Assembly (NCBI RefSeq): GCF_054482595.1 | Contig: NZ_CM137008.1 | Length of the DNA: 64,000 nt | Reading direction: 5' to 3' (one strand) | Notes under the pieces: generated by a model | The model's input: the letters and a program-made list of their open reading frames with translations, nothing else | What the model was told of the DNA's origin: nothing | Database searches by the model: none | Shown here: in pieces, positions 1,045 through 64,000 of the stretch | Numbering within the stretch: the first letter of the stretch is position 1 | Layout of the letters: every line of letters begins with the position of its first letter | Program-made: the position numbers and the translations under genes

Positions 1045-1938
<894 letters not shown>

Positions 1939-1974
1939 TTACCTCATCAATCGCTTGTAGTTATATGTTGTGTT

Positions 1975-2008
1975 GTGCACATCTATCCGTTTAGACGTCC
2001 AGATGTAA
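1975..2008 (-). promoter_or_regulatory. metF operator with tandem MetJ met-box-like octamers
   Basis: Minus-strand reading gives acatctGGACGTCTaaacggatagatgtg immediately upstream of metF, matching the AGACGTCT met-box consensus. Confidence 0.6.
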
Positions 2009-2283
2009 AGATGAAGGAAAAGCCGAAGGGCGTCAACCGAAAAATGACCAATGATGGTGAGGAAAAATCAGGGAAGATGAAAAAACTTCAGGATGGTAAG
2101 AAAAAGAAAATCCGGTATGCAAAGCAAACCGGACTGCAAATATTAACTAACCATGTACTTATTGCTTCTTGCCGGATTCGTCGTAAACGCTTCATCCGGC
2201 CTAATCCTATGATAATTCAATATATTTCATTAGAAACCATAGACCCGAAAACATGAGTACCGGACATTATTAAATTTCTGAAA

Positions 2284-4716
2284 TTACAACAACTGTGCCA
2301 GCCGGTTGATATCCGACTGAATCGCCCCGGCGGTGACGTCGCGCCCCGCGCCAGGCCCACGGATCACCAGCGGGTTATCGCGATACCAGCGGCTTTCGAT
2401 GGCAAAGACGTTGTCGCACGGCAGCAGTGATGCCAGCGGATGGTCTTCACGCACCGCCTCCACGCCCACACGCGCTTTGCCGTTGGCATCGAAACGCGCC
2501 ACGTAGCGCAGCACCAGCCCCATTTCGCGGGCCGCTTCCAGCCGTTGCACCATCTGCTCGTTAAGTTCATCGCCATTTTCAAAGAAATGGTCGATGCTGC
2601 CGCCTTCGCAATGAGCAGGCACCAGCGATTCCACACGTACCTGGTCCGGTTCAATGTTGTAACCCGCTTCACGCGCCAGAATCACCAGCTTGCGCATTAC
2701 GTCTTTGCCGGAGAGGTCGTCACGCGGATCAGGCTCGGTTAAGCCCTGCTGCCACGCCTGATCCACCAGCTCGGTAAACGGCACGCTACCGTCGAATTGC
2801 AGGAACAGCCAGGAGAGCGTGCCGGAGAAGATCCCACTGATCGACAAAATAGTATCGCCGCTGTCGATCAGATCGCGCACGGTGTGGTTGATCGGCAAGC
2901 CCGCACCGACGGTGGCGTTGTACAGCCAGTGACGCCCGGTTTTTTCGAAGGCGTCGTGGATCTGGCGATATTTATTGCTGTCGCTTGCTCCCGCCAGTTT
3001 GTTGGCACTGATGACGTGGAAACCGTGGCTGGCGAAATCAAGATACTGGTCAGCCAGCTGCTGGCTGGCGGTAACGTCCAGCACCACTAAATCATCATAC
3101 GGATGGGCGCGCATCCACAGGAAAAGCGACTCTTCATCCTGCTCGACCGCTTCATCGTTGAAGAAGGCTAACGCGCGGCTGGCGTCCAGCCCGTCATAAC
3201 TCAACAGACTGCGGCGGCTGTCCACCACGCCTGCCAGCACAAATTCAAAGCCGGTACGCGCCGAAAGCGAGCTCTGCTCGCGGGCGAACAGTTCCAGCCA
3301 GCGGGAACCGATATTGCCTTTGCCGAACAATACCAGGCCGATGCGTTTTTCTGCGCGGAAGACGGACTGATGCAGGCCCTGAATCAGGCTTTCGGTCGGG
3401 CCGGTGCGCAGTACTGCCACCAGGCTGATGCCGTCATCGGACTGCCAGGTAAACTCGACCGGCTGGCCTTTCAGTTGCTGCCAGAAGCGGTGGCAATGCA
3501 GCGGGTTACGGGTGACACCCGCCCCGACCATCGCCACCAGCGCCAGCCCCTGACGCAGGCGCAGTTCGCCAGGTAATCCCGCTTCGTCGAGGATTTTCAG
3601 CGCACTGTCGGCCACTTCTGAGGTGTAGCAAAATTGCAGCAACTGGCGATCGTTATGCACGCCAACCGCCAGTGGACGCACCTGGGCACGTTTCAGGATT
3701 TGGTCGATCTCTTTATGCGCCAGTTTGAAATCCTGACTGGCGGGCACCTGAAACTCAATCAAACAGACATCATCGTGGCTGGTGACAATACGCGCACCAG
3801 TACCGGAGGCCAGCACGCGTTCAATGCGCGTGGAACCTTGATCCGGCGTGTAGCTACAGCGCAGCTGCAGGTCGATTTCGCTGCCAGAAACTGGCTGTAA
3901 AGTACGGGCGTGAAGAACGGGAGCCGCCAGACGCGCCAGTTCGCTGGCCTCATCCAGACGCAGCAACGGCAGCAGGCAGGCATCTTTCACTTTACGCGGG
4001 TCGGCACTGTATACCCCGGCGACGTCGCTCCAGATGGTTACGCGAGAAACACCCGCCAGCGCACCGATTTGTGTCGCGGAATAGTCGGAACCGTTACGCC
4101 CCAGCAGCACCGTTTCACCGGCGTTGTTACGGCTGATAAACCCGGTCACCACCAGACGTTTACCCGGATGTTGTACCAGTAGCTGTTGCAGCAACGGGTA
4201 AGAAAGCCCTTCATCAACCTGCGGTTGCGCAGCGCGTTCAGCGCGTAAAAACTCGCGGGCATCAAGCCAGGCCGCTGGCAGCCCTTGTTGATTAAGTACC
4301 GCAGACATCAGTCGCGCCGACCACACTTCACCGTGGCCCACCACTTCCGCATACACTGCGTCGTTAATACCGCTGTCGAGCAGCGCCGCCAGGCGCTCAA
4401 GATCGCTGACAAAAGCGCTAATGAGGCTATCGGCTTCTTCGGCGGGTAGCAGGCCGCTAATCAGATCGCACTGATAGCGACGCAGCGTTTGTTGAACCTG
4501 ATGCGCAGAGAGACGATCGGTCTGGCTTAGTTTCAACCAGTTAATCAACTGGTTAGTGGTGCTACCGGCGGCGGAAACCACCATCATATCGTCAGGCTGA
4601 GAGTACTCCGCCATAATGCCCGCGACACGCAAATAACACTTCACATCAGCCAGACTACTGCCACCAAATTTATGCAGCTGACGACCTTTCGCCCCTGCCT
4701 GCGCAATCACACTCAT
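2284..4716 (-). CDS. metL: Bifunctional aspartokinase II / homoserine dehydrogenase II
   Basis: 810-aa ORF MSVIAQAGAKGRQLHKFGGSSLADVKCYLRVAGIMAEYSQPDDMMVVSAAGSTTNQL... recognised as MetL. Confidence 0.95.
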   Translation of the reverse strand: MSVIAQAGAKGRQLHKFGGSSLADVKCYLRVAGIMAEYSQPDDMMVVSAAGSTTNQLINWLKLSQTDRLSAHQVQQTLRRYQCDLISGLLPAEEADSLISAFVSDLERLAALLDSGINDAVYAEVVGHGEVWSARLMSAVLNQQGLPAAWLDAREFLRAERAAQPQVDEGLSYPLLQQLLVQHPGKRLVVTGFISRNNAGETVLLGRNGSDYSATQIGALAGVSRVTIWSDVAGVYSADPRKVKDACLLPLLRLDEASELARLAAPVLHARTLQPVSGSEIDLQLRCSYTPDQGSTRIERVLASGTGARIVTSHDDVCLIEFQVPASQDFKLAHKEIDQILKRAQVRPLAVGVHNDRQLLQFCYTSEVADSALKILDEAGLPGELRLRQGLALVAMVGAGVTRNPLHCHRFWQQLKGQPVEFTWQSDDGISLVAVLRTGPTESLIQGLHQSVFRAEKRIGLVLFGKGNIGSRWLELFAREQSSLSARTGFEFVLAGVVDSRRSLLSYDGLDASRALAFFNDEAVEQDEESLFLWMRAHPYDDLVVLDVTASQQLADQYLDFASHGFHVISANKLAGASDSNKYRQIHDAFEKTGRHWLYNATVGAGLPINHTVRDLIDSGDTILSISGIFSGTLSWLFLQFDGSVPFTELVDQAWQQGLTEPDPRDDLSGKDVMRKLVILAREAGYNIEPDQVRVESLVPAHCEGGSIDHFFENGDELNEQMVQRLEAAREMGLVLRYVARFDANGKARVGVEAVREDHPLASLLPCDNVFAIESRWYRDNPLVIRGPGAGRDVTAGAIQSDINRLAQLL

Positions 4717-58741: not shown

Positions 58742-59667
58742 GTATTCGCATAATCCCGCAAGATGAGCTGGGTTCGAGCGAGAAACGTACGGCGGATATG
58801 ATTCCGCCGTTATTGTTCCCTCGGCTCAAGAATTTATACAACCGCCGCGCCGAGCGTCTGCGCGAGCTGGCAGAAAATAATCCGCTGGGTGATTACCTGC
58901 GCTTTGCTGCGCTTATCGCCCACGCCCAGGAAGTGGTGCTGTACGACCATCCGCTGGAGATGGATCTGACCGCGCGCATTAAAGAAGCCAGCGCACAGGG
59001 CAAGCCCCCGCTGGATATTCACGTTCTGCCGCGTGATAAGCACTGGCAAAAGCTGCTGATGGCGCTGATTGCTGAGCTGAAACCTGAAATGAGCGGCCCG
59101 GCGCTGGCAGTGATTGAGAATCTGGAGAAGGCATCAACTCAGGAGCTGGAAGATATGGCCAGCGCACTGTTTGCCTCTGATTTCTCATCCGTCAGCAGCG
59201 ATAAAGCGCCGTTTATCTGGGCTGCACTGTCGCTCTACTGGGCGCAGATGGCCAATCTGATCCCCGGCAAAGCCCGCGCTGAATACGGCGAGCAACGTCA
59301 ATATTGCCCGGTTTGTGGTTCTATGCCGGTGTCCAGCATGGTGCAAATTGGCACCACTCAGGGTCTGCGTTACCTGCACTGCAACCTGTGTGAAACCGAA
59401 TGGCACGTAGTGCGCGTAAAATGCAGCAACTGCGAGCAGAGCGGCAAACTGCATTACTGGTCGCTGGATGACGAACAGGCCGCGATTAAAGCCGAAAGCT
59501 GCGATGACTGTGGCACTTACCTGAAGATTCTTTATCAGGAAAAAGAACCGAAAGTTGAAGCCGTGGCAGATGACCTCGCTTCTCTGGTACTGGACGCGCG
59601 AATGGAGCAAGAAGGCTATGCCCGCAGTTCCATCAACCCGTTCCTGTTTCCGGGTGAAGGGGAGTAA
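58738..59667 (+). CDS. fdhE: Formate dehydrogenase formation protein FdhE
   Basis: 309-aa [51 protein letters not shown]... with paired CxxC motifs; recognised as FdhE. Confidence 0.9.
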
Positions 59668-59859
59668 TCTCTGACGTTTTCCGGGTGGCGCTGGTCGCCC
59701 GGATTACAGCTCATAGGGTGTGACGACACCATCTCTCGTATTCCGCGTTACCCATTCAAGATCATGCCGCAATTGTCTGTTTGCCTCGTTCTTCCCTCCA
59801 ACACATCGATAAGGTTATGGGTATGTCACTGATGACAAGCGTATGATTGCCTGATGCGC

Positions 59860-59950
59860 TGCGCTTATCAGCCCTACCAATAAACTTCAATATATTGAAT
59901 TTGCATGACTTTGTAGGCCGGATAAGGCGTTCACGCCGCATCCGGCATGA
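59860..59950. repeat. REP/BIME element downstream of fdhE
   Basis: gcctgatgcgctgcgcttatcagccctac ... tgtaggccggataaggcgttcacgccgcatccggca. Confidence 0.85.
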
Positions 59951-59996
59951 ACAACGCGCACGTTGTCAGCAATCTGATTGACATCATTTTTTCCCA

Positions 59997-60215
59997 TTAC
60001 CATTCCTCGCGCAGCTTACGCTGATATTCGACACCATCTTCCTCACACCCTTGCCAGATGCCAGGAACACTGGTTCTTGCTGTTTGCGATTGATTTATCA
60101 GGTATTGATCTACCGCTTCCCTTAATAGGTCCGCACGAGGAAGATTACGCTGCACCTCGAGATCATCAAGTTGCTTAATCACCTCATTCGATAAATCGAG
60201 TAAAATTCTGCCCAT
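59997..60215 (-). CDS. yiiF: Small ribbon-helix-helix (CopG/MetJ-like) putative regulator
   Basis: [42 protein letters not shown]... (72 aa from ATG at 60215); gene name assigned from position next to fdhE. Confidence 0.65.
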
Positions 60216-60458
60216 ATCTATACCTACCAGAGAGTTCATAAATATCTCGCCAATATCATTTTTGAATCTATGGAGAGAAAAGTACCCTTGTCGAATCTTT
60301 AAAGAAAGCTCATTTACGAATCATTTTTTATTTTTGCGAGGCGTTTTCCAGATATGATGTAACAGTTGCAGTTATTATAAGTTCAAGTAAAACAACCTTG
60401 TATTAATACCAGAATAAGGGCATCTGGTTTTTTATATTCAAGAATAAAAAAATTTTTG

Positions 60459-60677
60459 TCATTCCTTATGATCCTTACACTGATCATAAACACCTACTGT
60501 CTCACCCCTTTGCCTGCCTCTCTTTGCTTTACGCACCGGAAATTGCTGCCGCTCCAGATATTGCTCAACCGCTTCGCGTAAAATTGCAGATCGTGAAACC
60601 TTACGCCAGCCCCGAAGCTTGTTCAGCCGTTTAATTGCCTCTTCTGATAAATGAAGAAAAACCGTATTCATCGCCAT
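60459..60677 (-). CDS. yiiE: Small ribbon-helix-helix (CopG/MetJ-like) putative regulator, paralog of the upstream gene
   Basis: MAMNTVFLHLSEEAIKRLNKLRGWRKVSRSAILREAVEQYLERQQ... (72 aa from ATG at 60677); shares the LxxEAVxQYL RHH signature and a homologous upstream region with yiiF. Confidence 0.65.
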   Translation of the reverse strand: MAMNTVFLHLSEEAIKRLNKLRGWRKVSRSAILREAVEQYLERQQFPVRKAKRGRQRGETVGVYDQCKDHKE

Positions 60678-61262
60678 TACCACCACCTTACATATATTAC
60701 TCATTAATGTATGTGCGAAAATTACGCCGGAAAATCATTTAAAAAAAGCGGATTTTTGCATGTTGTTTTGTTTTTGCGAGGTGTTTTCCAGAAATAATAA
60801 GAGTGTTGCAGTTGTTTCATTTATTACTCAAAAATGGTTTAGTTATCGCCCAGGATGAGTTATGGATGCTATGAATATATTATATTCAGAGATATTTATT
60901 TGCATAATCTGAATGGTGTAGCCGAAAAACGTCAGCATCCTAACAGCACCAGGATTTAAGGTGAAATTAATCATCCATCACAGACCGGTCAGTACTGCCA
61001 CCAACCGGTCTTTACTTGTTCATCGTTATAATTTTGTTGGTAACAGTTCGGGAAACAAGGAATTCCTTCCGGAACCCCCCGGTATCATCCGATAGCATTG
61101 ACGTCAATCATCAGCGCGACGATGAGTTTTTTTAATCGCATCATAGGGTGGCGACGTTCAGCACGATTACGGGTCATAGCAAAACTCCTGGGCAGGCGAC
61201 CACTATGCCGCTTTCACAGGAGTTCTGAATGCTAGTGCTTTCTGTATGGCATAACCATGCCT

Positions 61263-61553
61263 CTAACGGTTAAGTGCTTGCAGCACATGTTGCGGATCAT
61301 TGGCAATCGCTCGCAGCAAAGCCTTTGCAGGCCCGGTCGGTGAACGTCGCCCCTGCTCCCAGTTACGCAACGTGTCTACGCTTACAGAAATAAGATCGGC
61401 AAATTTAGATTGTGACAACCCTGAAGCGCGGCGTATTTCTTTGATTTTCATAGCATCAACTTCAAAAGTCCGCGAAGGCTGTCGCGTTCCTTCAATAATT
61501 TCATTCATCTGGGCCATGCTGTGAGTCAACCGCTCAAAAAGTGCCTTATCCAT
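61263..61553 (-). CDS. XRE-family HTH protein, putative antitoxin (HigA-like)
   Basis: 96-aa ORF MDKALFERLTHSMAQMNEIIEGTRQPSRTFEVDAMKIKEIRRASGLSQSKFADLISVSVDTLRNWEQGRRSPTGPAKALL...; HTH_XRE signature; starts directly after the upstream toxin ORF stop. Confidence 0.8.
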   Translation of the reverse strand: MDKALFERLTHSMAQMNEIIEGTRQPSRTFEVDAMKIKEIRRASGLSQSKFADLISVSVDTLRNWEQGRRSPTGPAKALLRAIANDPQHVLQALNR

Positions 61554-61865
61554 TTACCACCTCGTATTTAACAACCGGAGCATTGCTTTTTCCTGGGGAG
61601 ACAGATCATCTTTAATACCCTTACGATAAATAAGCAGTAATCTGATCTCATAATGTTTAACCTGATGAAAGTAAATAACCCTGACACCAGCACGTTTCCC
61701 CTTTCCTCCTGAAACCCATCGAACCTTTCTTAACCCACCAGTTTCAGGTATTACCTCACCATAGTCAGGATTCAAGGCCAGGAAAAACTGAAAACGACTG
61801 AATTCATCGTCGGTCAGCAGTTTTTGAACATCTTCAGTAAAAATTTCCGTTTCGATGAAGAGCAT
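61554..61865 (-). CDS. RelE/HigB-like type II toxin (mRNA interferase family), toxin-first operon
   Basis: 103-aa ORF MLFIETEIFTEDVQKLLTDDEFSRFQFFLALNPDYGEVIPETGGLRKVRWVSGGKGKRAGVRVIYFHQVKHYEIRLLLIYRKGIKDDLSPQE...; small basic protein of RelE-like pattern upstream of an XRE partner. Confidence 0.7.
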   Translation of the reverse strand: MLFIETEIFTEDVQKLLTDDEFSRFQFFLALNPDYGEVIPETGGLRKVRWVSGGKGKRAGVRVIYFHQVKHYEIRLLLIYRKGIKDDLSPQEKAMLRLLNTRW

Positions 61866-62018
61866 AATTATACGCCATTGGCTTAGAGTAACAATCCTTT
61901 TTGTACGTCATTGACGTACCCTTGAAACCACTAGCTTACTGATAGTGCTCCAGCAAAACCACGTCTCTGCCGGGTTTGTCTTTAGATTTGCGAGGCGCTT
62001 TCCAGATTTTTCACGCCC

Positions 62019-63002
62019 GTGAATTTCCCTGTATCCATCCAGCAAAAACGGGTGTATAAGACTGTGCATTCATACAGCAAAATAAGTTCTACTATGGCAC
62101 TGGAAAAAGGAATTGCAGAGTTAGTCGAAAAGTTTATCGCTGCGGGTCGCCCCTCATCGCGTCAACAAAGTATTGCGCAGCGCAGGGAGGGCTATATCGC
62201 CAGCGCTGTCCTTGCGGGTGAGACAGAAACGCGGGTAGATATTCAGACTATCGAACTTGAAGGGATGACCTTACGAATAGTGTCGCCGCTGAATGCCCCG
62301 ACATTACTCCCGACGATAATTTATTACTACGGTGGCTGTTTTGTTAGCGGCGGGTTCGCAACTCACGACAACCAGCTGCGCCAGTTAGCCTATTACGGGC
62401 AATGTCGGGTTATTGCCGTCCAGTATCGGCTGGCACCGGAACATACTTTCCCCGCCGCCCATGATGATGCGCAACGAGGTGCAGAAATAGTCTGGCAACA
62501 CGCCGAACGACTCGGCGTTGATAAACAACGTATAACTCTTGCCGGTGACAGTGCGGGCGGACATCTGGCGCTGGTAACTGCTTTGCGATTAAAGCGTGCT
62601 GGCGAGTGGCAACCGGCACAACTCATCTTAATTTATCCTATGCTTGATGCGACTGCGCATTTCGAAAGCTACATACGCAATGGTCACGATTACATCATCA
62701 CACGCGACACTTTACTGAGCGGCTTTGAGATGTATCTGCCAGGCATTGAACGCAGGCATCCTGAAGCCAGCCCTCTTTGGCGCGATGATTTCAATGGCTT
62801 GCCACCTGTACATATCATTACCGCTGAATACGACCCACTTTGCGATGAAGGTGAAGCGTTGTATCACCGCATGACAGGGCAAGGAGTGCAATGCACCTGC
62901 CAACGCTACCTTGGCGTTATCCACGGATTTTTTCAGTTAGGTGGTATCAGCGAGGCCGCGCGATCGGCACTACGGGATGTTGCCTGGAGAGCGGGAAGGT
63001 AA
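62019..63002 (+). CDS. Alpha/beta-hydrolase, hormone-sensitive-lipase-family esterase (Aes-like)
   Basis: Oxyanion-hole region YYYGGCFVSGG, nucleophile elbow GDSAGG, C-terminal GVIHGFF; true start may be the internal ATG at 62094 (MALEKGIAEL...). Confidence 0.75.
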   Translation: MNFPVSIQQKRVYKTVHSYSKISSTMALEKGIAELVEKFIAAGRPSSRQQSIAQRREGYIASAVLAGETETRVDIQTIELEGMTLRIVSPLNAPTLLPTIIYYYGGCFVSGGFATHDNQLRQLAYYGQCRVIAVQYRLAPEHTFPAAHDDAQRGAEIVWQHAERLGVDKQRITLAGDSAGGHLALVTALRLKRAGEWQPAQLILIYPMLDATAHFESYIRNGHDYIITRDTLLSGFEMYLPGIERRHPEASPLWRDDFNGLPPVHIITAEYDPLCDEGEALYHRMTGQGVQCTCQRYLGVIHGFFQLGGISEAARSALRDVAWRAGR

Positions 63003-63065
63003 CTTCGGACCTGGGCCCTGAAAAGGTTTTCAGATTGAAAACCTTTTCAGTCAAGTAAAACGCCC

Positions 63066-64000
63066 CTACTCTTCTTCGTTCCCGCCCTCTTCATACGGGC
63101 CAAATGGCTTCGCGGGCAGAACGATATACGTGCCTTCAAACACTGCACCCGGCGTCTCGTCGCCAAAGATTTCAACTTGCATCTGCACCCGTGCTTTTCG
63201 TCCGCGCGCCAGACGGTCGAGATCGCCGCTTAAGGCACCAAGGTCGGCTACCGCATGAGGTTTACCGCTAATCGGCTTGCTGTAGCGGATATGCGCATCC
63301 GCCAGAATAATCGTTCCGCCGAGATGGCGTTCGCGCAGCATCAGCCAGATAAGCCCCCAACCGGTGAGCGTCGCCAGCGAGAATAAACTCCCGGCAAACA
63401 GCGTATGGTGCGGATTCTGATTGCCGGTTTCCGGCATGGTGGTGATAAATTTTTGCCCGGTATATTGTTGAATACGCACGCCCATTTTTTCACTAAGCGG
63501 GATATGTTCGTACCACGCCTGTTGCAGCTGCGCGCACCAGTCGCCGCGATGCAAAATATCATCCAGAGTGGCGACGGGCTTAATCATCAAAAAATGGCGA
63601 ATCGGCGTGGTGGTTGGCGTGGTGATTTCTCCCTGATTAACAAACCCCAGCTTGGCGAAAAACTCCACCGCGTCTTCACGGGCGCTACAGGTCACGCGCT
63701 TAACGCCTTCCTGACGCGCCACCGACTCCAGGGTCATCGCCATCAGCGTTCCTAACCCTTTGTCCTGCACGTCCGGGTGAACGGCCATAAAGCGAATGGA
63801 CGCTTCATTGTCGGCATTAATATACAGTCGGCCTACCGCCACCAGATTACCCTGCTCGTCGACGACCATCTGGTGATGCGCCATCGCATCCCACGCGTCG
63901 CGTTCCGAACCTTTTGGTTGATGCAGGGGCTTACGCAACATTTCCCAGCGAAACTGATAGTAACGCTCTAATTCTTCTTCTGTTTGTGGAACCCGAAGGT
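63066..64000 (-). CDS. yiiD: GNAT acetyltransferase / thioesterase fusion protein YiiD, C-terminal part (start beyond window end)
   Basis: Frame open to the window end; ...[64 protein letters not shown]... recognised as YiiD. Confidence 0.85.

What the first reader, a model, noticed from the sequence alone, without database searches (positions are those of the whole stretch)
61263..61865. Toxin-first RelE/HigB-like and XRE-antitoxin module inserted between yiiE and yiiD
A 103-aa basic protein with a RelE/HigB-like sequence pattern is followed directly, with no gap, by a 96-aa XRE-type HTH protein on the same strand. This is the classic HigBA-type organisation. It sits at a position where I recall yiiE and yiiD being adjacent in K-12, so it looks like a strain-specific addiction or defence module.
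Basis: partly seen in the sequence, partly recalled or inferred. Interest (0 to 1): 0.5.

Follow-up and report, generated by a model that had tools for sequence, protein, structure and literature searches.

The report
Ordinary HigB2/HigA2 toxin-antitoxin pair, ancestral
This is a real but ordinary and already catalogued toxin-antitoxin gene pair (the E. coli counterpart of Salmonella sehCD and Vibrio cholerae higBA-2); it is an old resident of this chromosomal spot that K-12 has lost, not a strain-specific insertion.

Summary
On the minus strand, a 103-aa basic ORF (61554-61865) abuts a 96-aa HTH ORF (61263-61553), with TAA followed directly by ATG.

The toxin is a HigB-2-type RelE-fold mRNase. 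It matches solved V. cholerae HigB2 at E 1e-19 with 42% identity. All four catalytic residues are kept, and the AlphaFold model matches HigB2 at TM 0.82-0.85. The antitoxin is a HigA-2/NadS-type XRE repressor. Two palindromes upstream (61903-61919 and 61871-61885) share the GTACG-N7-CGTAC core of the mapped VcHigA2 operator. Their two arms co-vary symmetrically across genera.

The "strain-specific insertion" reading is not supported. The pair is single-copy in 2636 of 5426 complete E. coli genomes. It sits next to fdhE in Salmonella (where it is sehCD), Enterobacter, Klebsiella, Cronobacter and Yokenella. Its synonymous sites are saturated between genera. K-12 and O157 carry replacement or deletion scars at the site.

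The module was already listed in AIEC strain NRG857c as relE-1/yiaG-1. Whether the toxin is strongly toxic remains uncertain, because the ortholog data conflict. Interest is low.

One incidental finding: a conserved LexA-box-like site lies in front of the neighbouring hydrolase gene.

The parts
61554..61865 (-). Toxin gene, 103 aa. HigB-2-type RelE-fold mRNA interferase and orthologue of Salmonella SehC. Predicted catalytic residues are R49, R62, Y80 and K82.
   Evidence: ORF. phmmer against PDB HigB-2 gives E 1e-19 over residues 2-99 without gaps. Catalytic residue mapping is; these residues are invariant or nearly invariant in homologues. AF2 pLDDT is 86.7. The top 11 Foldseek hits are all VcHigB2.
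61263..61553 (-). Antitoxin gene, 96 aa. HigA-2/NadS-type, orthologue of Salmonella SehD. It has an N-terminal helix (residues 3-21), a flexible linker and a C-terminal XRE HTH domain (residues 34-95).
   Evidence: NCBIfam NadS scores 60.7 bits against a cut-off of 60. PDB HigA-2 matches at E 2e-8. Pfam HTH_3 hit. AF2 model. The top 8 Foldseek hits are VcHigA2.
61903..61919 (.). Operator O1: a perfect palindrome, GTACGTCA-(A/T)-TGACGTAC, 38-54 nt upstream of the toxin ATG. It overlaps the candidate -35 element.
   Evidence: Found. It has the same GTACG-N7-CGTAC core as the footprinted VcHigA2 operator TGTACGC-N5-GCGTACA. It is conserved at the same distance from the ATG in six genera, with symmetric arm changes (G..C versus A..T).
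61871..61885 (.). Operator O2: a near-palindrome, TAAGCCA-A-TGGCGTA, directly upstream of the toxin ATG.
   Evidence: It is the only other match to TACGYCAWTGRCGTA (1 mismatch) in the 64-kb window. It is conserved in all genera aligned.
61885..61911 (-). Candidate operon promoter (inferred): -35 ATGACG (61911-61906), 15-nt spacer, -10 TACTCT (61890-61885). The Salmonella equivalent is TTGACG-16-TACTAT.
   Evidence: Read from the aligned upstream regions. No transcription start data are available.
61867..61894 (-). Consensus-like sigma-70 site TTGTTA-16-TATAAT (10 of 12 positions). Its expected start point (about 61860) lies downstream of the toxin ATG. It is therefore either spurious or the source of an antitoxin-only transcript.
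   Evidence: 1 site found against 2.8 expected in shuffles, so not significant alone. The TATAAT is present in E. coli and Enterobacter but not in Salmonella, Klebsiella or Cronobacter.
61558..61563 (-). Strong Shine-Dalgarno sequence GAGGTG for the antitoxin, inside the last toxin codons. The toxin itself has only a weak GGCG-type site.
   Evidence: Read directly from the sequence.
61180..61227 (-). Terminator-like hairpin downstream of the antitoxin stop codon.
   Evidence: Inverted repeat of 19-nt arms. The RNA fold gives -31.5 kcal/mol, z -2.2. The U tract is weak.

Best explanation
The two genes form a chromosomal type II toxin-antitoxin operon of the HigB-2/HigA-2 family. It is the E. 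coli orthologue of Salmonella sehCD.

Shown by sequence and structure comparison:
- The 103-aa protein has the fold and the four catalytic residues (R49, R62, Y80, K82) of V. cholerae HigB2, a ribosome-dependent mRNA endonuclease.
- The 96-aa protein has the C-terminal XRE DNA-binding domain of HigA2, preceded by an N-terminal helix and a flexible linker.
- Two palindromes with the HigA2-type GTACG half-site lie over the promoter region.

Inferred by homology:
- An antitoxin dimer binds O1 and O2 and represses the operon.
- The antitoxin's N-terminal segment folds onto the toxin and inactivates it. In VcHigB2 this works by shifting strand beta3 and flipping the Arg64 equivalent (here R62) out of the active site.
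- Antitoxin excess is secured by its strong ribosome-binding site, compared with the toxin's weak one.
- When the labile antitoxin is lost, free toxin cleaves A-site codons and arrests growth.

Evolutionary history:
- The module is an ancient, vertically inherited resident of the fabY-fdhE interval of Enterobacteriaceae.
- It was lost from K-12 and O157 lineages by cassette replacement and deletion.
For: Toxin:
- phmmer to PDB HigB-2 gives E 1e-19 over an ungapped 98 residues at 42% identity.
- R51/R64/Y82/K84 of VcHigB2, shown by mutagenesis in PMC5416850, align to R49/R62/Y80/K82.
- These residues are invariant or nearly invariant in 28 homologues.
- The AF2 model has pLDDT 86.7. Foldseek ranks VcHigB2 chains 1-11, with TM 0.75-0.85.

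Antitoxin:
- NadS model 60.7 bits; HigA-2 E 2e-8; HTH_3.
- The model shows an N-terminal helix, a low-confidence linker and an HTH domain.
- VcHigA2 chains are the top 8 fold matches.

Operators:
- O1 is a perfect palindrome. Its core and spacing match the footprinted VcHigA2 operator (PMC11006873).
- O1 and O2 are the only two motif matches in 64 kb.
- They are conserved with symmetric arm covariation in six genera.

Orthology and age:
- The typical S. enterica locus is fabY-sehB-sehA-hydrolase | sehC-sehD-fdhE (matching the description).
- Identity to the E. coli proteins is 71% (toxin) and 85% (antitoxin).
- The pair has the same position in Enterobacter, Klebsiella, Cronobacter and Yokenella.
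- Between genera, dS is saturated or very high (1.4 to >5) while dN is 0.10-0.23, so dN/dS is well below 1 for both genes.

Function:
- SehCD scored as toxic and neutralisable in S. Typhimurium (PMC4366850).
- The only one of 2636 E. coli genomes lacking the antitoxin gene carries a frameshifted toxin.
Against: - Nothing was tested experimentally in E. coli.
- A now retracted paper reported that SehC is not toxic in LB and that a sehD deletion has no phenotype (PMC3868539).
- A widely sampled Salmonella lineage (loci L005/L006; toxin P0110, seen on 641 contigs) and one locus fetched with the Enterobacter toxin P0064 (L009) have a frameshifted antitoxin gene beside an intact toxin. This argues that the toxin is not lethal at native expression there.
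- Pfam RelE PF06296 scores only 17 bits, i-E 0.006, and no NCBIfam model hits the toxin.
- The antitoxin's N-terminal 40 residues show no detectable sequence similarity to VcHigA2. The neutralisation mechanism is therefore inferred from architecture only.
- The promoter and transcription start are not mapped. The best consensus promoter would start transcription after the toxin ATG.
Confidence: 0.8

Rival explanations
1. The module is attenuated or domesticated. The toxin has little toxicity at native levels. What selection maintains is mainly the HTH protein (NadS/SehD) acting as a transcription factor, possibly with targets beyond its own promoter.
For: - The antitoxin protein is identical (WP_000356397.1) in four divergent E. 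coli alleles, while the toxin varies (T18N, G56W, frameshift).
- 132 genomes carry a +1G frameshift in the toxin; in the frameshifted allele examined (L004) the antitoxin gene is intact, and all but one TA-bearing genome keep a full-length antitoxin gene.
- The antitoxin evolves more slowly than the toxin between genera.
- Salmonella and L009 (Enterobacter-type) lineages have a frameshifted antitoxin beside an intact toxin.
- The retracted Salmonella study found no toxicity for SehC and no phenotype for a sehD deletion.
- The toxin has a weak ribosome-binding site.
Against: - The toxin is under purifying selection across genera, and its catalytic residues are invariant.
- SehCD scored as a functional toxin-antitoxin pair in PMC4366850.
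- The single E. coli genome without the antitoxin has a dead toxin.
- The operator motif occurs nowhere else in the 64-kb window.
Confidence: 0.2
2. One reading: a recently acquired, strain-specific genomic islet (addiction or defence module) inserted between yiiE and yiiD.
For: - K-12 and O157 lack the pair.
- The toxin's GC content (40.7%) is below the window average (51.2%).
- Relatives at about 73% nucleotide identity occur on Salmonella plasmids, and about 66% on Pantoea and Acinetobacter plasmids.
- PMC7232551 describes such TA loci as islets.
Against: - The pair is present in 2636 of 5426 genomes, always single-copy and at the same locus.
- It sits next to fdhE in six genera.
- dS between genera is saturated.
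- O157-type genomes retain a 26-nt stub of the antitoxin's 3' end, and K-12 is a deletion derivative of the O157-type cassette.
- No flanking direct repeats, integrase or transposase lie beside it in the window.
Confidence: 0.04
3. Its main role is anti-phage abortive infection, or anti-addiction against plasmid-borne relatives, rather than stress-induced growth control. This is not exclusive of the best explanation.
For: - Both proteins match phage protein families of unknown function (phrog_5869, E 6e-27; phrog_2104, E 8e-26).
- Relatives occur in Acinetobacter and Pseudomonas phages and on plasmids.
- RelE/ParE-superfamily toxins are discussed as defence toxins in bioRxiv 10.1101/2025.01.28.635273.
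Against: - No PADLOC model matches the toxin, and only generic HTH models match the antitoxin.
- The locus is not in a recognisable defence island. Its neighbours are fabY, an esterase and fdhE.
Confidence: 0.1

Closest known systems
Vibrio cholerae HigB-2/HigA-2 (superintegron higBA-2; PDB 5JAA, 5JA8, 8A0X)
   Same: - Toxin-first operon.
- The toxin is 42% identical over its full length, with the same fold and the same catalytic Arg/Arg/Tyr/Lys.
- The antitoxin has an N-terminal toxin-binding segment plus a C-terminal XRE domain (32-34% identity, rmsd 1.6-2.2 A).
- The operator is an inverted repeat with a GTACG core and the same 7-nt spacing between cores.
   Different: - Here there are two operator-like palindromes instead of the single mapped site.
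- Two of the four base-contacting residues differ: R68 corresponds to D60 and E71 to R63.
- No sequence similarity is detectable in the antitoxin's N-terminal region.
- The location is a fixed core-chromosome site, not an integron cassette.
Salmonella enterica SehC/SehD (STM4032.2N/STM4033)
   Same: - It is the orthologue: same position next to fdhE, transcribed divergently from the same alpha/beta hydrolase.
- Identity is 71% (toxin) and 85% (antitoxin).
- The operator architecture is the same.
   Different: - Most S. enterica carry a second module, sehAB (K-12 HigBA type), between the hydrolase and fabY. E. coli does not.
- E. coli has yiiE and yiiF between the pair and fdhE.
- The half-site is ATACG in Salmonella and GTACG in E. 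coli.
relE-1/yiaG-1 (TA27) of AIEC E. coli NRG857c (PMC7232551)
   Same: By its description it appears to be the same locus: between yiiD and fdhE, present in CFT073, absent from K-12 and HS. The AIEC strain LF82 carries the antitoxin gene at 99.3% identity.
   Different: That paper only catalogued it. It interpreted it as a pathogen-associated islet. The survey here shows it in about half of all E. coli, including commensal and environmental isolates.
HigBA of plasmid Rts1 and of E. coli K-12 (YgjN/YgjM); Salmonella SehAB
   Same: Toxin-before-antitoxin order, a RelE-superfamily toxin and an XRE antitoxin.
   Different: - The toxin belongs to a different subfamily (Pfam HigB-like, PF05015 or PF09907).
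- Those toxins lack the C-terminal helix alpha3.
- Their antitoxins are larger (138-148 aa) and organised differently.
- No such Pfam hit is found here.
E. coli K-12 RelE/RelB
   Same: The active-site layout and ribosome-dependent cleavage mode are reported as closest to HigB2.
   Different: - The gene order is antitoxin-first.
- The antitoxin is a ribbon-helix-helix protein.
- Sequence identity is only about 17% (figure from PMC5416850).

Membership tests
HigB-2-type toxins (VcHigB2; Pfam PF06296 'RelE') | Full-length sequence similarity to VcHigB2 | tested here: met
   E 1e-19, residues 2-99 ungapped, 41 of 98 identical
HigB-2-type toxins (VcHigB2; Pfam PF06296 'RelE') | Match to the Pfam PF06296 profile | tested here: inconclusive
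   i-E 0.0062, 17.2 bits, residues 43-101 only. Several 70%-identical homologues carry a precomputed PF06296 hit.
HigB-2-type toxins (VcHigB2; Pfam PF06296 'RelE') | RelE fold with two N-terminal helices, a beta-sheet and C-terminal helix alpha3 | tested here: met
   AF2 model elements are E2-5, H7-16, H19-31, E45-53, E59-70, E73-81 and H90-102. TM to HigB2 chains is 0.75-0.85, with rmsd down to 1.6 A.
HigB-2-type toxins (VcHigB2; Pfam PF06296 'RelE') | Catalytic residues Arg51, Arg64, Tyr82 and Lys84 | tested here: met
   They correspond to R49, R62, Y80 and K82. R62, Y80 and K82 are invariant and R49 is at least 90% conserved.
HigB-2-type toxins (VcHigB2; Pfam PF06296 'RelE') | Ribosome-dependent cleavage of A-site mRNA codons | not testable with these tools
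   Needs in vitro translation or primer-extension assays.
HigA-2/NadS-type antitoxins | NCBIfam NF041265 (NadS) above its curated cut-off | tested here: met
   60.7 bits against a cut-off of 60, so marginal. RefSeq names the gene nadS.
HigA-2/NadS-type antitoxins | C-terminal XRE HTH domain like that of VcHigA2 | tested here: met
   E 2e-8 to HigA-2. HTH_3 E 3e-9. rmsd 1.6-2.2 A to 5J9I chains.
HigA-2/NadS-type antitoxins | N-terminal disordered toxin-binding segment that folds into a helix plus a strand | tested here: inconclusive
   The model shows helix 3-21 at pLDDT about 67 and a linker at pLDDT below 50. The segment is conserved among orthologues. It has no sequence match to VcHigA2.
HigA-2/NadS-type antitoxins | Inverted-repeat operator over the promoter, with a GTACG core | tested here: met
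   O1 and O2, compared with the footprinted operator and conserved across genera. Actual binding was not tested.
Type II toxin-antitoxin system (functional definition) | Toxin arrests growth and the cognate antitoxin neutralises it | not testable with these tools
   Ortholog data conflict: PMC4366850 says functional, and the retracted PMC3868539 says non-toxic.
Salmonella SehCD orthologue group | Same chromosomal position (abutting fdhE, divergent from the STM4032-type hydrolase) and high identity | tested here: met
   71% and 85% identity, with the same intergenic architecture.
Rts1 / K-12 HigB family (Pfam PF05015 / PF09907) | Match to HigB-like profiles or structures | tested here: not met
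   No such Pfam hit. No K-12, Shigella or Proteus HigB chain appears among the PDB sequence hits or the listed fold hits.
Known anti-phage defence systems (PADLOC-DB 2.0) | Match of the toxin to a defence-system model | tested here: not met
   0 families for the toxin and only generic HTH models for the antitoxin.

The most novel reading that the evidence does not exclude
The pair, together with the divergent LexA-box-bearing hydrolase, is a positionally fixed three-gene unit. Enterobacteriaceae would have kept it next to fdhE since before the genera split. In this reading the HTH protein has been domesticated as a regulator. In E. coli and Enterobacter, a strong TTGTTA-16-TATAAT promoter overlapping operator O2 would start transcription just inside the toxin ORF. 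That would yield an antitoxin-only mRNA that buffers a still-active toxin.
Probability: 0.1. Interest if true: 0.4.

Novelty: already known. Interest (0 to 1): 0.15.

Why it matters
It matters little beyond annotation.

- **Annotation gap.** The result gives a precise family (HigB-2/HigA-2, sehCD orthologue) to a toxin gene that RefSeq labelled 'hypothetical protein' in most of the records sampled here. No NCBIfam model covers it, and the Pfam match is below threshold.
- **Polarity of the K-12 difference.** The difference is loss by replacement and deletion in K-12, not gain in this strain.
- **A small general point.** This toxin-antitoxin pair has stayed at one chromosomal site across several genera under purifying selection. 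That is less usual than the islet-like behaviour normally ascribed to such modules.
- **Natural knock-outs.** Frameshifted toxins in E. coli and frameshifted antitoxins in Salmonella offer ready-made material for testing whether the toxin is still active.

Tried and rejected
- **Pfam and NCBIfam for the toxin.** Only a sub-threshold RelE hit appeared, and no NCBIfam family. The assignment therefore rests on PDB sequence and fold matches.
- **PADLOC.** No defence-system match for the toxin, the hydrolase or the two proteins of the O157-type cassette.
- **Rfam over 59600-63200.** Nothing in the TA region. There are only two sub-threshold REP-associated hits at 59870-59952.
- **Papers naming WP_000897305 or WP_000356397.** None found. 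The name 'NadS' could not be traced to a characterised protein.
- **Antitoxin N-terminus (40 aa) against PDB sequences.** No hits.
- **Paralogues of the antitoxin in E. coli.** None found at blastn sensitivity.
- **The TTGTTA-16-TATAAT site as the operon promoter.** Considered and not adopted. Its start point would fall after the toxin ATG, and the TATAAT is not conserved in Salmonella, Klebsiella or Cronobacter.
- **SehAB as the Salmonella counterpart.** Considered and rejected. SehB is 142-148 aa and SehA hits Pfam HigB_toxin. The true counterpart is SehCD.
- **dS as a clock.** It is saturated, so it shows only that divergence is old, not how old.
- **The two E. coli 'plasmid' matches.** The E. 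coli records hit in PLSDB are 1.0-4.9 Mb replicons, so they are chromosomes or mislabelled records. The two E. coli genomes 'plasmid' places were not inspected but are probably of this kind.

Full report

Yes. The minus strand carries a 103-aa ORF at 61554-61865 and a 96-aa ORF at 61263-61553. The toxin's TAA stop codon (61556-61554) is followed at once by the antitoxin's ATG (61553-61551). The first protein is basic, with pI 9.3. The second has an XRE-type helix-turn-helix (Pfam HTH_3, E 3e-9, residues 37-74).

**2. What the toxin is**

A phmmer search of the Protein Data Bank returns only V. cholerae HigB-2 chains. The E-value is 1e-19, over residues 2-99 without gaps, and 41 of 98 positions are identical.

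Mutagenesis of VcHigB2 identified Arg51, Arg64, Tyr82 and Lys84 as active-site residues (PMC5416850). They align to R49, R62, Y80 and K82 here. In 28 homologues, R62, Y80 and K82 are invariant and R49 is nearly so.

An AlphaFold2 model (pLDDT 86.7) has HigB2 chains as its eleven best Foldseek matches, with TM 0.75-0.85 and rmsd down to 1.6 A. ParE toxins follow at much weaker scores.

The profile libraries lag behind this evidence. Pfam RelE (PF06296) scores only 17 bits, and no NCBIfam model hits the protein. That probably explains why RefSeq labels the intact gene 'hypothetical protein' in most of the records sampled.

**3. What the antitoxin is**

It reaches the NCBIfam NadS model at 60.7 bits, just above the cut-off of 60. 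It matches VcHigA-2 at E 2e-8 over the HTH domain.

Its model has an N-terminal helix (residues 3-21), a low-confidence linker and a five-helix domain. VcHigA2 chains are the eight best fold matches, with the C-terminal domain at rmsd 1.6-2.2 A.

The N-terminal 40 residues have no detectable sequence relative in the PDB. They are nonetheless strongly conserved among orthologues, with an amphipathic pattern.

**4. Control region**

A perfect palindrome, GTACGTCA-N-TGACGTAC, lies at 61903-61919. I call it O1. The footprinted and crystallised VcHigA2 operator is TGTACGC-N5-GCGTACA (PMC11006873). It has the same GTACG core and the same seven bases between cores.

The degenerate motif TACGYCAWTGRCGTA occurs only twice in the 64-kb window. 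One occurrence is O1. The other, with one mismatch, is at 61871-61885 (O2), just before the toxin ATG.

Both elements are conserved at the same distance from the ATG in Salmonella, Enterobacter, Klebsiella, Cronobacter and Yokenella. The outer base of the two O1 arms changes symmetrically: G...C in E. coli, Enterobacter and Cronobacter, and A...T in Salmonella, Klebsiella and Yokenella. That pattern is expected for a site read by a symmetric dimer.

Of the four base-contacting residues of VcHigA2, Asn72 and Arg77 are kept (as N64 and R69). Arg68 and Glu71 are replaced (by D60 and R63); this is read from the alignment.

The promoter is not mapped.
- The conserved candidate is a -35 inside O1 and a -10 (TACTCT; TACTAT in Salmonella) just before O2.
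- A better consensus match, TTGTTA-16-TATAAT, would start transcription after the toxin ATG. It is not conserved outside E. coli and Enterobacter. I treat it as unproven.

The antitoxin has a strong GAGGTG ribosome-binding site inside the toxin's last codons, while the toxin's own site is weak. A hairpin at 61180-61227 could terminate the operon.

**5. Where else it occurs**

The 603-bp pair is found once per genome in 2636 of 5426 complete E. coli genomes, at 95-100% identity. The antitoxin gene is full-length in 2635 of them, and there is no second copy elsewhere.

Carriers include O104:H4, O111:H8, LF82, ATCC 25922 and E. coli KO11FL, as well as soil, water and animal isolates.

K-12 lacks window 61056-63065 and has 474 bp in its place. 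Those 474 bp match the end of a different cassette found in O157:H7. That cassette has two genes of unknown function and 38% GC. O157-type genomes still carry a diverged copy of the last 26 nt of the antitoxin gene at the left junction. K-12 is thus a deletion derivative of a cassette that itself replaced the TA-hydrolase segment.

**6. Other genera**

The toxin (67-76% identical) and the antitoxin (79-88% identical) occur widely in Enterobacteriaceae.

In every locus read, the pair abuts the 3' end of fdhE:
- Salmonella
- Enterobacter
- Cronobacter
- Klebsiella
- Yokenella

In Enterobacter, Klebsiella, typical S. enterica and E. coli, an alpha/beta hydrolase is transcribed divergently from the pair, between it and fabY.

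Between E. coli and these genera:
- Toxin dN is 0.16-0.23 and antitoxin dN is 0.10-0.17.
- The flanking genes fdhE and fabY have dN of 0.03-0.08.
- Synonymous sites of the pair are saturated or very high, 1.4 to above 5.

The module is therefore old, evolves faster than its neighbours and is under purifying selection. This is the opposite of a strain-specific insertion.

**7. What is already published**

The typical S. enterica locus matches the description of sehAB and sehCD separated by STM4032 (PMC3868539). The window's pair corresponds to sehCD (STM4032.2N/STM4033), with 71% and 85% identity.

- That paper, which is marked as retracted, reported three things: about 10-fold self-repression by SehD, SehD binding to its own promoter, and no toxicity or phenotype for SehC or a sehD deletion.
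- An independent study scored SehCD as a functional toxin-antitoxin pair and detected SehC by proteomics (PMC4366850).
- In E. coli, what appears to be the same locus was catalogued in AIEC NRG857c as relE-1/yiaG-1 (TA27), lying between yiiD and fdhE and absent from K-12 and HS (PMC7232551).

The finding is therefore already known in kind and in place.

**8. Is the toxin active?**

Evidence for activity:
- The catalytic residues are conserved and the gene is under purifying selection.
- The one E. coli genome that has lost the antitoxin (through IS1) has a frameshifted toxin.

Evidence against strong toxicity:
- 132 E. coli genomes share a +1G frameshift in the toxin; the frameshifted allele examined (L004) keeps an intact antitoxin gene.
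- One allele has G56W at an invariant glycine.
- A widely sampled Salmonella lineage, and one locus fetched with the Enterobacter toxin P0064 (L009), have a frameshifted antitoxin beside an intact toxin.

I rate an active but mild, tightly repressed toxin as most likely. A domesticated regulator is the main rival.

**9. Other roles**

No PADLOC model matches the toxin. Relatives exist in a few phages and on plasmids of Salmonella, Pantoea and Acinetobacter. Anti-phage or anti-addiction roles therefore remain possible but unsupported.

**10. Verdict**

The toxin-antitoxin interpretation is confirmed and refined to the HigB-2/HigA-2 family, orthologous to sehCD. The insertion interpretation is rejected. 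Novelty is 'already known' and interest is low.

Noticed in passing
window 62062-62077: There is a LexA (SOS) box-like CTGT-N8-ACAG (CTGTGCATTCATACAG), the only such match in the 64-kb window. It lies 16 nt upstream of the ATG (62094) of the divergent alpha/beta hydrolase (62094-63002, hormone-sensitive-lipase/LipP1-like). It is conserved at the same distance in Salmonella (CTGTATGTATGTACAG), Enterobacter and Klebsiella, while the surrounding intergenic DNA has diverged. This suggests the hydrolase (STM4032 orthologue) is LexA-repressed. No paper in the library links the two.
   Followed up: partly
window 61056-63065 versus L002 (K-12) 1655-2128 and L003 (O157:H7) 1903-4193: The yiiE-fabY interval holds alternative cassettes. 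O157-type genomes carry two genes of unknown function (304 and 297 aa, 38% GC, with no PADLOC or PHROG match) in place of the TA pair and hydrolase. K-12's 474 bp, including its annotated pseudogene, are the remnant of that cassette after a 2-kb deletion.
   Followed up: partly
L004 4183-4495; L015 2499-2796 (E. coli TUM2830, EC5931): A +1G frameshift in a G-run at toxin nucleotide 165 is shared by 132 complete genomes. In the frameshifted allele examined (TUM2830, L004) the antitoxin gene is intact. In EC5931 an IS1 element has additionally removed the antitoxin. EC5931 is the only carrier genome without the antitoxin gene.
   Followed up: yes
L005 and L006 4313-4599 (Salmonella); L009 4313-4660 (fetched with the Enterobacter toxin P0064): The antitoxin gene is frameshifted near codon 10 in the Salmonella loci, leaving an 84-aa ORF without the N-terminal 12 residues. 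The antitoxin gene in L009 is also disrupted. In all three loci the toxin ORF is intact with all catalytic residues. The Salmonella toxin sequence (P0110) was seen on 641 contigs.
   Followed up: partly
window 59997-60239 and 60459-60704; repeats 60294-60376 and 60733-60816: yiiF and yiiE are tandem CopG/ribbon-helix-helix paralogues with 76%-similar upstream flanks. They have weak similarity to RelB-like antitoxins and to the LexA-regulated protein YbfE. They are absent from the Salmonella, Enterobacter and Yokenella loci, so they, rather than the TA pair, are the lineage-specific additions here. Some E. coli strains have extra genes (DUF6708 and others) between them.
   Followed up: partly
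window 61554-61865 (annotation): The intact toxin is labelled 'hypothetical protein' in most of the sampled RefSeq E. coli records. Frameshifted copies and a few intact ones are labelled 'RelE/ParE family toxin'. No NCBIfam model hits the protein, and Pfam PF06296 is sub-threshold.
   Followed up: yes
window 59870-59952: There are two sub-threshold Rfam matches to REP-associated small RNAs: ES036/CssrF at 35.9 bits against a gathering score of 37.6, and naRNA4 at 38.2 against 59.5. They lie between fdhE and yiiF.
   Followed up: no
L017 1383-1694 (E. coli ESBLEC_MG48): This toxin allele has G56W, at a glycine that is invariant in 28 homologues. It may be another inactivating change.
   Followed up: no
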